A DNA stretch of 64,000 bases from the NCBI RefSeq assembly GCF_000017185.1, contig NC_009635.1, forward strand, positions 248,563 through 312,562. The letters are read 5' to 3'. Source of the stretch: Methanococcus aeolicus Nankai-3 (lineage in GTDB: Archaea > AGJL01 > Methanococci > Methanococcales > Methanococcaceae). Below the pieces are notes generated by a model. The model was not told where the DNA came from. It saw only the letters and a program-made list of their open reading frames with translations, and did not search any database. Position numbers and translations under genes: made by a program. Below are positions 24,089 to 63,073 of the stretch, in pieces; the stretch's first letter is position 1; each line of letters starts with the position of its first letter.

Positions 24089-24186
24089 TATAGTTAATCT
24101 TCAAAAACTGTCCCTAATCTGCCATAAGATTGTGAAATTTAGCTTTGTTATCGTATTTAACTGAAAAAGACCGAAGATTAATTATA
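24089..24186. mobile_element. MITE copy A (short form, about 98 bp)
   Basis: Left end TATAGTTAATCTTCAAAAACTGTCCCT, right end AAAAAGACCGAAGATTAATTATA. The termini are inverted repeats shared with the copies at 29301, 30455, 59419, 60519 and 62944. Confidence 0.7.
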
Positions 24187-24230
24187 AATTAAAAAGATAA
24201 AAAAGATAAAAAATAAAAATAGTATTTAAT

Positions 24231-25463
24231 TTATTGAATAATTCCATATCCAATTAATCTCCATCTTGAACCTATTCTTCTACTCATTGCTATTCTGTCC
24301 CCTTTATCTGCGCAAATAGGAAGTTTTAACTTCATATCAGCCATATCTCCTCTTGCGGAGGTTATTATTCCAACTGTGGTTGCTGTTCCCACATTTAACA
24401 TTAAAGCTTCATTTGATTTTAAAGGGCTTATTATTAATTCTTCGTCTGAACCTACAATTCTATCCAATAATTTTGTTTGAACTGTGATTTCGGATAAAGT
24501 TTCAGGCAATGTTCCCGGAGCTCCGGCTACACATCCACTTAGTGAATCTGATTTTGTAAGTGCTGGGTCTAATTCTGTTCCAATTCCAACCAATCCTCCC
24601 GGATGAGCCACTTTAACAGTTTTACCTCCAACACCAAGAGATGTGATTTTTGTAATTATAGATTCCCATCTAATTTTATTTCCTTCTACGATTTTTAATC
24701 CCGGTTTAATTTCGATTTTTTCGCCTGAATTAAGTGTTCCTTGAATTATGCTCCCTCCGATAACCCCACCTTTAAGCTTACTTATCTCGCATCCTGGTTT
24801 ATTGATGTCAAAACTTCTTGCAACATATAATCGTGCAGGAGCTCCCTCATCCATTTCAGGGGTTGGCATTAAATCCTCAATTGCATTTAATAATATATCA
24901 ATATTTGCTCCGTGATGTGCTGAAATAGGGATAATTGGGGCTTTTTCTGCTACTGTGTCTTTTACAAATTCTTTTATTTCGTTGTAGCTTTCTTTTGCTC
25001 TTTCTTCATCAACTAAATCAATTTTGTTTTGAACAATAATAATATTTTCAATTCCAAGGGCATCAAGTGCCATTAAATGTTCTTTTGTTTGGGGTTGTGG
25101 GCATTTTTCTGTTGCAGCTATTACCAATATTGCCCCATTCATAAGGGAAGCTCCTGATAACATTGTAGCCATTAGCGTTTCGTGCCCAGGTGCATCTACA
25201 AATGATATTTTTCTTGACATTTTTGTTTTGGTGCCACATACTGGACAGGTTTTGCTCACAGAATATGCTTCGGGAGCTCCACATTTTGGGCACTTCATAA
25301 TCTCACAATCTGCATAACCTAATCTTATGGAGATTCCTCTTTTTAACTCTTCACTGTGGGTGTCCGTCCATGTTCCGGTTAGTTGTCTGGTTAAACTGGT
25401 TTTTCCGTGGTCAACATGACCAACCATACCAATATTTATTTCCGACTGTTTTACTTTTACCAT
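24231..25463 (-). CDS. eif2g: translation initiation factor aIF2 gamma subunit
   Basis: GTPase motifs [18 protein letters not shown], plus the zinc-knuckle CPKCG...CPVCG. Confidence 0.95.
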
Positions 25464-25753
25464 CGATATCCCTCTAATTCCGTTTATTATTTAATTTTAA
25501 TTGTTATCATTATATGTTTATATTTATTATAATAAAATATTTATTACATATATATTAATGTTGGATAATCTAAAATATAAAAAACCATTAATATAATATA
25601 AATATACAATATATAAATAGGAATAAAATAAATAGAATTTATTTTAATTAATTATATGTTTGAATATTATCAAAATGATTAAATATTTTTTATTACTTCT
25701 CTTAATTGATTATATGCAACACAGTATATATAATTTACATAAAATAATTTTAT

Positions 25754-26650
25754 ATGGTGAATATCATGGACAAAACAGGGAGCTCCTCGGCAATGGCTTT
25801 GGCATCAGGAACCATTATAAATGCCATAGCCACAGGTAAAGGTTCGGCATTTGGTATAGATTTAAATGTATGTGCCACGGTTGAGCTGATTGATGACGGA
25901 AAAAAAAGAATTAAAGGAATTATAAAAGACCATCCTACCGTGAAGCCCAATCTTATAGAAACTTGTGTAAAAAATGTTTTAAATTATTTTGAGTTGGATT
26001 ATTCTGCAACAGTAAGCACAAAAACCACAATACCAGTGAAATCTGGGCTTAGTAGTAGTAGTGCCACATCTAATGCCGTAGTTATGGCTACAATTGATGC
26101 AATAGGGGAAAAATTAGATCCTAAATTAATACTTGATTTGGCTATAAAATCCTCTTTCGATGAAAAATTAACCATCACAGGAGCTTATGATGATGCAACG
26201 GCGTCTTATTATGGTGGCATAACAATAACAGATAATACAAAAAGAGAACTAATTAAAAGAGATACCTTTAAAAGTAATAACGAAAGCATTGAGGATATTA
26301 TTGATGTTTTAATACTTATTCCAAATTTAAATAAAAATGTTAATGTAAATAGAATGAAACTTTTAAAAAATTCTGTTGCCGTGGCATTTAAAGAGTGTTT
26401 AGCTGGAAATTACTACAACGCACTATTTTTAAATGGTATTTTATATGCTTCGGCATTGAATTTTCCAACAAACATAGCAATTGAGGCAATCGAAAGTGGA
26501 GCTCTAACAGCAGGATTATCTGGAACAGGTCCATCATACATAGCATTATGCAATAAAGAAAATACCGAAAATGTTAAAAATACATTAAATAAATATGGTA
26601 AAGTAATTATCACAAAATTAAACAATAAAGGGGCGAGTATAGTATGGTAG
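25754..26650 (+). CDS. aroK: archaeal (GHMP-type) shikimate kinase
   Basis: [19 protein letters not shown] and GLSSSSA motifs, as in MJ1440-type enzymes. The alternative start at 25766 is also possible. Confidence 0.8.
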
Positions 26651-27342
26651 AAAAAGTTTATGGAATTGGAGTAGGTCCAGGAGATAAAGATTTATTGACG
26701 GTAAAAGCTGTAAATATATTGAATAGCGTAGATACAATTTTTGTCCCAATATCAAAAGAGGGTCGGAGCTCCGTAGCATATGATATAATAAAAGATGTAT
26801 TAAATGAGGATAAAAAAGAAAATATCGTAGAATTATTATTCCCAATGAGTAAAGATATTGATTATTTAAAAAAATACTGGAACGATGCTTTTAATACCAT
26901 TAAAGAAGCAAATGGAGAAGTAGCACTAATAACAATTGGGGACCCAACATTGTACAGCACCTTCTCTTATGTGTGGAGCTCCCTAAAAGAAAATAATATT
27001 TCTGTTGAAATTATAAATGGCATTCCTTCGCCTTTTGCAAGTGCGGGAAGGTTAAATATCCCACTTGTTGAAGGCGATGAAAATATTGCAATACTTCCTC
27101 AGGGAAAGGATTTAGAAAAATATTTGGGAGTATTTGATACTATTGTAGTTATGAAAACTAAAAGTTTAGGAGAAAAACTTAAAAAATTAGTTGATGAGGA
27201 GCATAAAAACGATTATATTGTAGGTATTGTAAGTAAAGCCTGTTGCGAAAATGAAGAAATTCAAATGGGAAAAATCGATGAAATTAATTTTGATGAGGTT
27301 AATGAATATTTATCTCTTGCAGTGATTAAGAAGATTAAATGA
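26644..27342 (+). CDS. cbiL: precorrin-2/cobalt-factor-II C20-methyltransferase
   Basis: [19 protein letters not shown] tetrapyrrole methylase N-terminus. 232 aa. The start overlaps the aroK stop (ATGGTAG). Confidence 0.8.
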
Positions 27343-60901: not shown

Positions 60902-61231
60902 ATGAAAGTGCTATTATATATATTTGTAGAAATTGAAAATATTGGAAAAGCTATCAATGCCCTTTCAGAAGGGGAAATTTCTGGATTTTTTTTAATGGAA
61001 TATAAAGGAATGTCACCTCAAGAGTGGGCTGGATTTTTAATTGACGAGGAACCTGAAAAAGCTGTAAAAATAATCAATGATATGGCCAAAAATTCAGTTG
61101 TAATTGGAACTGTTGTTAGTGAGAATAATCTTGAAAACATAAAATATGCCATAGCTGAAAAATTAGGGGACTACAAACATACGATTATGGAGCTCCCATT
61201 ATGCGGACTAAAAGTAAATAAAGTGGATTAA
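60902..61231 (+). CDS. small hypothetical protein upstream of atwA
   Basis: Intact ORF. No family recognised with confidence. Confidence 0.45.
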   Translation: MKVLLYIFVEIENIGKAINALSEGEISGFFLMEYKGMSPQEWAGFLIDEEPEKAVKIINDMAKNSVVIGTVVSENNLENIKYAIAEKLGDYKHTIMELPLCGLKVNKVD

Positions 61232-61279
61232 TCAAATTAATTATTATTTATTATTTATTATTTTATATTGGTGATGATA

Positions 61280-62875
61280 ATGGTATTGCTTGAAGTAAAA
61301 AATGTTAGTAAAAAATTTGGAGATAGTGAGGTATTGAAAAATATAAATTTTACATTGGATGAAGGAGAGGTTCTTGGAATTCTTGGAAGAAGTGGTGCTG
61401 GAAAATCGGTTTTACTACATATGCTTAGGGGTATGGAGGGGTATGAACCAACAGAAGGGCAGATAATTTATACCGTAGCTCAATGTGATGGATGTGGTTC
61501 AGTAGAAGTTCCTTCGATGGAAAATCAAAAATGTAGTTGTGGAGGCAATTATGAGCTGATTTCTGTTGATTTCTGGGACAAAAATCAGACAACATTTAAT
61601 TTAAAAAGAAAAATTGCCATAATGCTCCAAAGAACTTTTGCTTTATATGGTGAGCAATCTGTTATTGAAAATATATTGCAGGCACTATCAGCAGCAGGGT
61701 ATGAAGGAAAAGAGGCAACAAATATAGCTCTAAAATTAATAAAAATGATTAAAATGGAGCATAGAATTACTCATGTTGCAAGAGATTTAAGTGGGGGAGA
61801 AAAACAGAGGGTAGTTCTTGCACGACAGATAGCTAAAAAACCAATCATATTTTTGGCAGATGAACCAACTGGAACACTGGACCCAAAAATCGCAAAAATT
61901 GTTCATAAAGCACTAAAAGAGACCGTAGTTAAAAATAAAATAGGCATGGTAATAACTTCTCACTGGCACGAGGTAATAGAAGAATTGGCAAATAAAGCCA
62001 TATGGTTAGAAAAAGGAGAGATAAAAGAACAGGGAGATAGTAAAGAAATAGTTGCTAAATTTGTAGAAACCATTACAGAATTAAAGAAATTTGACAAGGT
62101 TGAAATTAAAGAGGATATGGCAATATTGGAAAATGTTGAGAAAAAATATTGTTCGGTTGAAAGGGGAATTGTAAATGCCGTTGGTGGAGTATCATTAGAT
62201 ATTAAAGAAATGGAAATATATGGATTGGTTGGAACCAGTGGTGCTGGAAAAACTACCTTATCAAAAATAATTGCAGGTGTAATTCCTCCATCGAAAGGAA
62301 AATATATATTTAGGGTGGGGGATGAATGGGTAGATATGACACAACCTGGTCCAATGCATAGGGGAAGGGCAAAAAGATACATAGGTATGTTATTCCAAGA
62401 ATACACATTATATCCACATAGAACAATATTATACAACCTTACAGAATCCATTGGCTTGGAGCTCCCTGGAGAATTTGGAATGATGAAAGCTAATCAGGTG
62501 TTGGTTTCAGTAGGTTTCACAGAAGAGGAGGCAGAGAAACTATTGGATAAATATCCAAATGAGCTCAGTGTTGGGGAAAAACACAGAGTAGCACTTGCCC
62601 AAGTTCTTATAAAAGAGCCACATATGGTATTATTAGACGAACCAACTGGAACAATGGATCCAATTACAAGAAACCAAGTTGCAGAATCGATTCAAAAATC
62701 AAGGGCAGAATTAGAGCAAACTTATGTTATAGTATCTCATGATATGGATTTTGTGTTAAATGTATGTGATAGGGTGGCATTAATGAGGGGAGGCAAAATA
62801 ATTAAAATAGGAGCTCCCGAAGAAATTGTTCAAATATTGACGGAAGAAGAAAAAGAAGAAATGATTGGACATTAA
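61280..62875 (+). CDS. atwA: methyl-coenzyme M reductase system component A2 (tandem ABC ATPase)
   Basis: Two ABC cassettes ([23 protein letters not shown] and [23 protein letters not shown]) with a Cys-rich insert CDGCG...CSCGG. Start at 61280 or 61274, after GGTGA. Confidence 0.85.
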
Positions 62876-62943
62876 TAACATATATTATTTATATAATTTT
62901 ATTTTTTTAATTATTTATTTTATTATTGTTTTTGAAAGGTAAT

Positions 62944-63073
62944 TATAGTTAATCTTCAATAACTGTTCCTTATCCGTCCCAAATTGAGCATATTTCTCTG
63001 TTGTTGGTAATATAATAAGAGATTTTATATTCTTTAACTATGCATTACGGAAATTGTTCGAAGATTGACTACA
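62944..63073. mobile_element. MITE copy G (130 bp)
   Basis: TATAGTTAATCTTCAATAACTGTTCCTTA...TTGTTCGAAGATTGACTACA. Ends 1-2 nt before the ATG of the next gene. Confidence 0.7.

What the first reader, a model, noticed from the sequence alone, without database searches (positions are those of the whole stretch)
24089..63073. A MITE family with TATAGTYAATCTTC terminal inverted repeats: six full copies and one solo end in this window
Copies lie at 24089-24186, 29301-29419, 30455-30737, 59419-59655 (inverted), 60519-60703 and 62944-63073. There is also a solo terminus at 28056-28080.

All are intergenic and 98-283 bp long, with no coding capacity. They share inverted termini: one end is TATAGTTAATCTTCAA(A/T)(A/G)ACTGTCCCT, and the other is the reverse complement of TATAGTCAATCTTCGGTCTTTTTCACTAAA. 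Their interiors are variable and modular.

Elements start with TATAG and end with CTATA. This is compatible with TA target duplication, as in IS630/Tc1-derived MITEs, though that is speculative. No autonomous transposase is present in the window.
Basis: seen in the sequence. Interest (0 to 1): 0.6.

Follow-up and report, generated by a model that had tools for sequence, protein, structure and literature searches.

The report
Recently mobile MITE family, Methanococcus aeolicus
The window carries six copies and one broken end of a small non-coding "jumping" DNA element that inserts at TA dinucleotides; two copies are missing from a second strain of the same archaeon, so the family moved recently, but it is an ordinary kind of element.

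Summary
TATAGTYAATCTTC (up to 1 mismatch) occurs 10 times against 0.08 expected. The hits form inverted pairs that bound six intergenic elements of 98-283 bp, and there is one truncated end.

The host is Methanococcus aeolicus. A second strain, PL15/Hp (CP104873.1, about 99% identical), lacks c5 and c6. Its empty sites hold a single TA, where the window has TA-[TAG...CTA]-TA (cA on one side of c6). The closest related lineage, about 90% identical and known from metagenome contigs, has no copy at any of the six sites or at the solo end. At the c6 site it shows the same clean empty sequence. These are therefore insertions with TA target-site duplication, not ancestral regulatory sequence.

Only the termini are conserved. 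The interiors are cassettes of A4N4-triloop-N4T4 hairpins. Their number differs between strains at the same locus, as boxB modules do in pneumococcal BOX elements.

No transposase is encoded in the window. An IS630/Tc1-mariner-type partner is inferred from the TA specificity only.

The exact terminus was found in no other species-representative genome, and I found no description in the searchable literature.

Verdict: a real MITE family, a new member of a known kind, of moderate-to-low interest.

The parts
24089..24186 (+). c1: 98-bp element, A end to B end on the + strand, including the flanking TA at each side. It is the minimal form, with no hairpin cassette.
   Evidence: It is present in PL15/Hp (L109 16158-16255) and absent from the sister lineage. 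Three independent short-read assemblies break 29 nt inside its A end.
28047..28080 (-). Solo, truncated A' terminus with an outer TA. The inner side carries a triplicated TAGGGACA motif. No B end is present.
   Evidence: 25 of 25 nt identical to the A' end of c2. The profile match covers 28047-28080. It lies at a junction where the related genomes differ from one another. It is present in PL15/Hp (L109 12264-12297).
29301..29419 (-). c2: 119-bp element of the A' subfamily. It abuts the stop codon of the 2-phosphoglycerate kinase gene.
   Evidence: Absent from the sister lineage, though the site there is not a clean empty site. Present in PL15/Hp. 83% identical to a further copy outside the window (L107 15042-15156).
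30455..30737 (+). c3: 283-bp element with an A' end, two hairpins (30500-30540), a spacer, and an array of three 27-28-nt hairpin units (30620-30707).
   Evidence: The RNA fold has z = -3.6 on the + strand and -6.8 on the - strand. The orthologous copy in PL15/Hp lacks 30622-30676 (55 nt, two units) and has 44 extra nt forming two other hairpins. The element lies 20 bp from the edge of a 16.3-kb block that the sister lineage lacks at this position.
59419..59655 (-). c4: 237-bp element with a three-unit hairpin array at 59449-59536.
   Evidence: 149 nt are 95% identical to c3. The orthologous copy in PL15/Hp lacks 59480-59534, the same 55-nt two-unit block that is missing from its c3. Absent from the sister lineage.
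60519..60703 (+). c5: 185-bp element with two hairpins (60568-60608). It lies 48 bp downstream of radB.
   Evidence: Absent from PL15/Hp, with a precise junction. Empty site: GCGATATT-TA-ATGTTTAG. Filled site: GCGATATT-TA-[TAGTTAATC...GATTGACTA]-TA-ATGTTTAG.
62944..63073 (+). c6: 130-bp element inserted between the Shine-Dalgarno-like AGGT and the ATG (63075) of the downstream gene.
   Evidence: Absent from PL15/Hp and from the sister lineage. Empty site: GAAAGGTAAT-TA-AATGAATGG. Filled site: GGTAAT-TA-[TAG...CTA]-cA-AATGAATGG. The predicted fold pairs the two termini.

Best explanation

Shown:
- Each copy is bounded by the 12-nt terminus TAGTYAATCTTC in inverted orientation. A 2-nt-deleted variant is found at one end in a subfamily.
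- Each copy sits in a TA dinucleotide that is duplicated on insertion.
- Copies are present or absent between two strains that are about 99% identical.
- Copies are absent from the closest related lineage at every site examined.
- Only the termini and about 15-25 subterminal nt are conserved. The interiors are optional cassettes of hairpins of the form AAAA-N4-triloop-N4-TTTT.
- The number of hairpin units changes in place between strains.

Inferred:
- The elements encode nothing, so a transposase encoded elsewhere in the genome must move them.
- Strict TA targeting with TA duplication points to a DDE transposase of the IS630/Tc1-mariner type acting by cut-and-paste.
- The changes in hairpin number probably arise by slippage or recombination between the short direct repeats that flank the units.

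Speculative side effects:
- The hairpin-T5 arrays of c3 and c4 face the transcription of their upstream genes and could act as terminators.
- c6 moves the ribosome-binding site 128 nt away from its start codon. Pairing of the two termini in the mRNA could bring them back together.
For: Statistics of the termini: 10 hits against 0.08 expected. There are exactly 7 A ends and 6 B ends in the window.

TA flanks: 13 of the 14 flanks of seven complete elements are TA.

Empty sites with a single TA: c5 and c6 in PL15/Hp, and c6 in sister-lineage contigs L072 and L074.

Absence from relatives: no copy in about 160 kb of sister-lineage contigs, which are redundant and amount to roughly 50 kb of unique sequence. 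These contigs span all six orthologous sites and the solo-end junction.

An extra copy with TA on both sides lies 2.5 kb beyond the window in PL15/Hp (L107 15042-15156).

Conservation is restricted to the termini (alignment A1).

Orientation relative to the neighbouring genes is mixed, three in each direction.

Module indels occur at orthologous copies.

TA-only targeting with TA duplication is the hallmark of IS630/Tc1/mariner (PMC2170065).
Against: No autonomous element and no transposase with these termini was found. There is none in the window, and the only transposon-related gene in the fetched flanks is an IS605 OrfB/TnpB gene without these termini.

The genome-wide copy number is unknown, because the complete genomes could not be scanned.

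The sites of c1, c2 and c4 in the sister lineage, and of c5 there, are too diverged to give clean empty sites.

c6 appears to be the most recent insertion, yet it has a mismatched duplication (TA / cA) and the most diverged B end.

The sequences cannot distinguish a TA duplication from an insertion between T and A of an element whose ends are ATAG...CTAT.
Confidence: 0.85

Rival explanations
1. It is a MITE, but it is mobilised by something other than an IS630/Tc1-mariner transposase. Candidates are an IS5/IS427-like or IS30-like enzyme with a short duplication, or an unidentified enzyme as for the Neisseria Correia elements. This differs from the best explanation only in the partner enzyme.
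For: No partner element was found. The termini begin TA|TAGT, as do the Correia repeats (tatagtggattaa..., PMC5039591). To my knowledge the transposase for Correia elements is still unidentified.
Against: Strict TA targeting with a 2-bp TA duplication is characteristic of IS630/Tc1/mariner. Duplications of 3 bp or more do not fit the c6 empty site.
Confidence: 0.25
2. The blocks are ancestral, conserved intergenic regulatory or structural sequences, such as terminators, protein-binding sites or small-RNA genes, and not insertions. On this view the missing copies are deletions.
For: The long copies are strongly structured (z = -3.6 and -6.8). The hairpins show paired changes between copies. Every copy lies between genes that point the same way.
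Against: The sister lineage lacks all of them. The empty sites for c5 and c6 are exact and retain one TA. The outgroup shares the empty c6 state. Orientation relative to genes is mixed. There is no Rfam match.
Confidence: 0.03
3. They are palindrome-associated elements of the IS200/IS605 type, mobilised as single strands by TnpA and linked to the TnpB gene near the window.
For: The interiors are rich in hairpins. An IS605 OrfB/TnpB gene lies about 8 kb beyond the right edge of the window in PL15/Hp (L107 18464-19663).
Against: IS200/IS605 elements have no terminal inverted repeats and make no target duplication. These elements have both. No MITE terminus lies near the TnpB gene.
Confidence: 0.02

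Closest known systems
IS630/Tc1-mariner-derived prokaryotic MITEs, for example RUP of Streptococcus pneumoniae (linked to IS630-Spn1)
   Same: Short, non-coding and AT-rich, with terminal inverted repeats. Insertion is into TA with TA duplication. Copies are intergenic, and mobilisation in trans is presumed (PMC3049150).
   Different: No IS with matching termini has been identified here. The host is a methanogenic archaeon. The interior is a variable hairpin cassette rather than a fixed sequence. There is no sequence similarity to anything in the collections searched.
Correia repeat-enclosed elements (CREE) of Neisseria
   Same: About 100-150-bp elements whose ends read TATAGT..., as the ends here do. 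From my own knowledge, they duplicate TA, vary in their interior, and affect neighbouring genes through promoters and RNase III sites. No partner transposase is known.
   Different: Beyond the first 6 nt the 26-bp Correia repeat (tatagtggattaac...) does not match TATAGTYAATCTTC. The hosts are bacteria rather than an archaeon. The resemblance is a lead, not evidence of homology.
BOX elements of Streptococcus pneumoniae (boxA-boxB(n)-boxC)
   Same: Two conserved terminal modules enclose a tandem array of short structured modules. The number of those modules differs between strains at the same locus (PMC3049150; compare c3 and c4 against PL15/Hp).
   Different: The sequences are unrelated. BOX termini resemble ISSpn2. 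Here the internal units are 27-28-nt A4N4-triloop-N4T4 hairpins, and the cassettes are optional.

Membership tests
MITE (generic) | Short and without coding capacity | tested here: met
   98-283 bp. The longest stop-free stretch is 53 codons or fewer. All copies lie between ORFs.
MITE (generic) | Terminal inverted repeats | tested here: met
   13 of 16 terminal nt pair in c1, c4, c5 and c6. The A' subfamily (c2, c3, the L107 copy) keeps TATAGT..AA..TTC with a 2-nt deletion.
MITE (generic) | Target-site duplication, shown by comparing filled and empty sites | tested here: met
   c5 has TA on both sides against a single TA in PL15/Hp. c6 has TA / cA against a single TA in PL15/Hp and in the sister lineage.
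MITE (generic) | Multiple dispersed copies and insertion polymorphism | tested here: met
   Seven in the window and one more in L107. c5 and c6 are polymorphic between strains. The genome-wide number was not measured.
MITE (generic) | A related autonomous element with the same termini | not testable with these tools
   None in the window or in the fetched flanks. The complete M. aeolicus genomes could not be scanned. The one genome-collection scan returned only chance hits in unrelated bacteria.
IS630/Tc1-mariner-derived MITE | Exclusive TA target with TA duplication | tested here: met
   13 of 14 flanks are TA. Two empty sites hold a single TA. The family property is taken from PMC2170065.
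IS630/Tc1-mariner-derived MITE | Termini that match an IS630-family element encoding an HTH + DDE/DDD transposase | not testable with these tools
   No such element was available to compare.
Correia element (CREE) | The 26-bp Correia inverted repeat tatagtggattaa(c/a)... | tested here: not met
   Only the first 6 nt (TATAGT) are shared with the repeats quoted in PMC5039591.
IS200/IS605-type palindrome-associated element | No terminal inverted repeats and no target duplication, with subterminal hairpins at both ends | tested here: not met
   Inverted termini and TA duplication are both present.
Any Rfam RNA family | Covariance-model match at the gathering score | tested here: not met
   The only match in the window is a tRNA. 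The best match on c3 is rli52 at 20.7 bits against a gathering score of 70, with E = 0.75.

The most novel reading that the evidence does not exclude
Two more novel readings remain open. First, the family may be moved by a transposase type that has not yet been tied to TA|TAGT-ended MITEs, the same problem that the Neisseria Correia elements pose. Because the family was active recently between two sequenced strains, it could allow that enzyme to be identified. Second, the A4N4-triloop-N4T4 hairpin units may be a separate layer that spreads on its own. They are gained and lost inside orthologous copies and also occur outside the elements (31390-31444, 50725-50761), which would make them comparable to REP-like units nested in a MITE scaffold.
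Probability: 0.12. Interest if true: 0.6.

Novelty: new member of a known kind. Interest (0 to 1): 0.35.

Why it matters
The finding documents a recently active, non-autonomous transposon in the Methanococcales, a group with few characterised mobile elements.

It gives strain-typing markers for M. aeolicus, namely the presence or absence of c5 and c6 and the number of hairpin units.

It offers natural test cases for how such insertions affect archaeal gene expression. One case is a ribosome-binding site moved 128 nt from its start codon. Another is the pair of hairpin-T5 arrays lying between genes.

It also explains why short-read assemblies of this species break at these loci.

It does not reveal a new kind of system.

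Tried and rejected
- Scanning species-representative genomes for TATAGTYAATCTTCRRNNNNTKTY gave 24 single hits in unrelated bacteria, about the number expected by chance, and none in any Methanococcales. The M. aeolicus genome itself is evidently not searchable there, because the extra PL15/Hp copy fits the pattern and was not found.
- The same pattern in metagenome contigs (46 stretches) and in viral contigs (4) gave only chance hits. I inspected L033, which lies inside a bacterial coding region (the surrounding sequence looked like ribosomal-protein genes, but I did not test this), and L049/L057, which lie inside a long ORF that reads like a membrane protein and is likewise unidentified. Profile searches showed no extension beyond the selected pattern.
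- BLASTN of c3 against plasmids found no match.
- Rfam, at both the gathering and the E-value thresholds, found nothing.
- The sigma-70 promoter and bacterial terminator scan is uninformative for an archaeon.
- Literature searches for a Methanococcus or Methanothermococcus MITE found no description. The PL15/Hp genome paper mentions neither repeats nor transposons. Filée et al. 2007 could not be opened.
- Attempts to reach sequence beyond the left edge of the window returned only short same-strain contigs.
- The empty sites for c1, c2, c4 and c5 in the sister lineage were too diverged to read.
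Full report
**1. The observation**

The motif TATAGTYAATCTTC, allowing one mismatch, occurs 10 times in the window. Dinucleotide-preserving shuffles give 0.08 on average, and none of 100 shuffles reached 10. Reading the sequence shows that the hits form inverted pairs bounding six elements:

| Element | Coordinates | Length |
|---|---|---|
| c1 | 24089-24186 | 98 bp |
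| c2 | 29301-29419 | 119 bp |
| c3 | 30455-30737 | 283 bp |
| c4 | 59419-59655 | 237 bp |
| c5 | 60519-60703 | 185 bp |
| c6 | 62944-63073 | 130 bp |

Each element has two different ends:
- an 'A' end, TATAGTTAATCTTCAAWRACTGTCCCTTATCC
- a 'B' end, TATAGTCAATCTTCGGTCTTTTTCACTAAAYC

Profile HMMs built from the two ends find exactly seven A ends and six B ends in the window and nothing else.

It is identical over 25 nt to the corresponding end of c2.

- c2 is inverted as well as c4.
- c2, c3 and the solo end carry a variant A' end, TATAGTAAGTTCAAWAACTGTCCC. It has two nucleotides deleted and one substituted.
- c1 ends TTATA and c6 ends CTACA.

All copies lie between ORFs. None has a stop-free stretch longer than 53 codons.

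**2. The organism and the comparison material**

The thiol:fumarate reductase subunit TfrA encoded at 22291-23949 is 100% identical to a protein that NCBI names from Methanococcus aeolicus.

Exact-protein look-ups gave two 21-kb stretches of a second strain's closed genome, CP104873.1. This is M. aeolicus PL15/Hp according to PMC10113651.
- L107 corresponds to window 51052-64000 plus about 9 kb beyond the right edge.
- L109 corresponds to window 19420-40829.
- Both are about 99% identical to the window.

The window strain itself is probably Nankai-3, but I could not verify that.

A more distant sister lineage is about 88-92% identical in nucleotide sequence, with AtwA 96% and 2-phosphoglycerate kinase 95% identical as proteins. 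It is represented by metagenome contigs that cover all three neighbourhoods (L072-L089 and L097-L102).

**3. Insertions, not ancestral sequence**

Strain PL15/Hp has c1, c2, c3, c4 and the solo end at the same positions as the window. It lacks c5 and c6, and the junctions are exact.

| Site | Empty allele | Filled allele (window) |
|---|---|---|
| c5 | ...GCGATATT-TA-ATGTTTAG... | ...GCGATATT-TA-[TAGTTAATC...GATTGACTA]-TA-ATGTTTAG... |
| c6 | GAAAGGTAAT-TA-AATGAATGG | GGTAAT-TA-[TAG...CTA]-cA-AATGAATGG |

The sister lineage has the same empty c6 site (L072 and L074). The empty state is therefore ancestral, and c6 was inserted in the lineage of the window strain.

The sister contigs contain no copy at any of the six orthologous sites, none at the junction that holds the solo end, and none anywhere else. 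They total about 160 kb, but they are highly redundant and amount to roughly 50 kb of unique sequence.

At the sites of c1, c2, c4 and c5, the AT-rich intergenic DNA of the sister lineage has diverged too far to show clean empty sites.

One more copy lies 2.5 kb beyond the right edge of the window in PL15/Hp (L107 15042-15156). It is 83% identical to c2, has an A' end and has TA on both sides.

Across the seven complete elements, 13 of 14 flanks are TA.

The sequences cannot distinguish two formally different descriptions. One is a TA duplication around an element TAG...CTA. The other is an element ATAG...CTAT inserted between T and A. The first is the conventional reading. Duplications of 3 bp do not fit the c6 site.

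The exception at c6 (cA), together with its diverged B end, is slightly odd for what appears to be the youngest insertion. I have no explanation beyond a later point mutation.

**4. Anatomy**

In the six-copy alignment, only the first 30 or so and the last 25 or so nucleotides are conserved (A1).

The interiors are modular:
- c1 has almost no interior.
- c3 and c5 share a pair of hairpins. In c3 they are AAAATCCT-TTT-AGGATTTT and ACAAAAGC-ATA-GCTTTTGT. In c5 the first is AAAATCTC-TTC-GAGATTTT, with both stem differences compensated.
- c3 and c4 share 149 nt at 95% identity. This stretch includes an array of three 27-28-nt units, each of the form AAAA-N4-triloop-N4-TTTT(T).
- The three units of c4 have different but perfectly paired stems: TCGC/GCGA, CTCC/GGAG and TTCC/GGAA.

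The long copies fold much better than shuffled sequence (z = -3.6 and -6.8). The short copies fold mainly through pairing of their termini.

Perfect hairpins of this design are concentrated in the elements. Of 11 in the window with at least two G/C pairs in the stem, 8 (seven distinct hairpins) lie in c3, c4 or c5. Shuffles give 4.3 for the whole window.

A few hairpins occur outside the elements, at 31390-31444 and 50725-50761.

**5. The cassettes change in place**

The orthologous c4 of PL15/Hp lacks window 59480-59534, which is 55 nt or two units.

The orthologous c3 of PL15/Hp lacks the equivalent 55 nt (30622-30676). It also has 44 additional nucleotides that form two other hairpins, AAAATCTC-GAA-GAGATTTT and ACAAAATC-TTC-GATTTTGT.

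The 55-nt block is flanked by the imperfect direct repeat TTTTTA(C/A)G(A/G)TC. I infer either slippage at that repeat, occurring twice, or one event copied to the other element by gene conversion.

This behaviour parallels the variable boxB arrays of pneumococcal BOX elements (PMC3049150).

**6. Mechanism**

The elements encode nothing, so they must be moved in trans.

Pfam scans of 40 window ORFs found no transposase. The ORFs were chosen from the ORF lists to cover the large, non-nested ones of roughly 110 aa and above. Several others were identified only through their sister-lineage orthologues.

The only transposon-related gene in the fetched flanks is an IS605 OrfB/TnpB gene (L107 18464-19663). 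It has no MITE terminus nearby.

Transposition exclusively into TA, with TA duplication, is the defining behaviour of the IS630/Tc1/mariner group (PMC2170065). That is the partner I think most likely, at roughly 0.55-0.6. This step is inference only.

Conservation limited to the termini is what recognition by such an enzyme would predict. The mixed orientation relative to the flanking genes (three each way) is also what a mobile element would show.

**7. Possible effects on neighbouring genes (inferred, untested)**

- c6 lies between the AGGT of the ribosome-binding site and the ATG at 63075 of the downstream gene. In the empty alleles these are about 7 nt apart, and in the window they are 128 nt further apart.
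- The predicted fold of c6 pairs its two termini. That could bring the ribosome-binding site and the start codon back together.
- In c3 and c4, the hairpin arrays followed by T5 face the direction of transcription of the upstream genes. They could therefore act as terminators, since archaeal termination uses oligo-T.

**8. Distribution and novelty**

A scan of one genome per prokaryotic species for a 24-position pattern covering both ends returned only 24 single hits in unrelated bacteria. That is about the number expected by chance, and none was in any Methanococcales. The M. aeolicus genome is evidently not searchable in that collection.

Metagenome, viral and plasmid searches were also negative. 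I inspected the candidates and rejected them.

Short-read assemblies of M. aeolicus break inside the elements (L001, L094-L096, L108, L110 and L111). The break 29 nt into c1 cannot be explained by copies within the window. This suggests at least one further copy elsewhere in the genome, but that is indirect evidence.

I found no description of this family in the searchable literature.

The closest known elements are:
- IS630-linked bacterial MITEs such as RUP.
- The Neisseria Correia elements. Their ends also read TATAGT... but do not match beyond that.
- BOX elements, for the modular interior.

**9. Verdict**

This is a genuine MITE family with TA duplication that has been active since two sequenced strains diverged. 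It is a new member of a known kind.

Its interest lies in three things: the archaeal host, the recent activity and the hairpin cassettes that vary in place. The partner transposase and the genome-wide copy number remain open.

Noticed in passing
window, 55 sites (e.g. 27993, 29097, 59661, 61189, 62458, 62810, 63163): The palindromic octamer GGAGCTCC occurs 55 times in 64 kb at about 30% G+C, where roughly 0.1 would be expected. GAGCTC occurs 67 times and GGGAGCTCCC 11 times. The octamer is about as dense (around 1 per kb) in sister-lineage contigs. Of the 24 alignable sites, 20 are exactly conserved there despite 83-96% local identity. It shows no marked bias between coding and intergenic DNA (44 of 55 lie in long open frames, which cover 83% of the window). 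Unexplained.
   Followed up: partly
window 30436-46701: A 16.3-kb block lies between the 2-phosphoglycerate kinase gene and the PBP-like/PEP synthase genes in M. aeolicus. It carries Usp, Band7, an NMN-adenylyltransferase-like gene, tRNA-Ser(GCT), and the archaellum operon from the flagellins through FlaK. In the sister lineage those neighbouring genes are only 84 bp apart. c3 lies 20 bp inside the left edge of the block. No element end is present at the right edge.
   Followed up: partly
window 33340-34556 vs L109 5719-6922: Next to tRNA-Ser, strain PL15/Hp carries a phage-type integrase and a DUF2540 gene that the window lacks. The number of tandem 703-bp flagellin gene repeats also differs: three at 36682-38737 in the window, against two 214-aa flagellin genes in L109.
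   Followed up: no
window 13816-15333: HerA is split into two ORFs in M. aeolicus, one of 216 aa (DUF87) and one of 276 aa (HerA_C). The same split is seen in Logan assemblies of the species. The sister lineage has a single 504-aa gene.
   Followed up: no
window 243-6661: A cluster that looks like a defence island: GmrSD-like, PD-(D/E)XK nuclease, UvrD-like helicase, DUF6884 and a kinase-like protein. Exact-protein look-ups for two of its proteins did not find them in PL15/Hp. The cluster contains three 37-nt repeats centred on GGAGCTCC, at 5979, 6255 and 6567.
   Followed up: no
window 31390-31444 and 50725-50761: Hairpins of the same A4N4-triloop-N4T4 design as the element interiors occur in intergenic DNA with no element termini nearby. 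Examples are AAAATCAC-AAA-GTGATTTT and CAAAATC-AAA-GATTTTG. They may be remnants or independent units.
   Followed up: partly
L107 18464-19663 (about 8 kb beyond the right edge of the window, strain PL15/Hp): An IS605 OrfB/TnpB-type gene of 399 aa with no MITE termini near it.
   Followed up: partly
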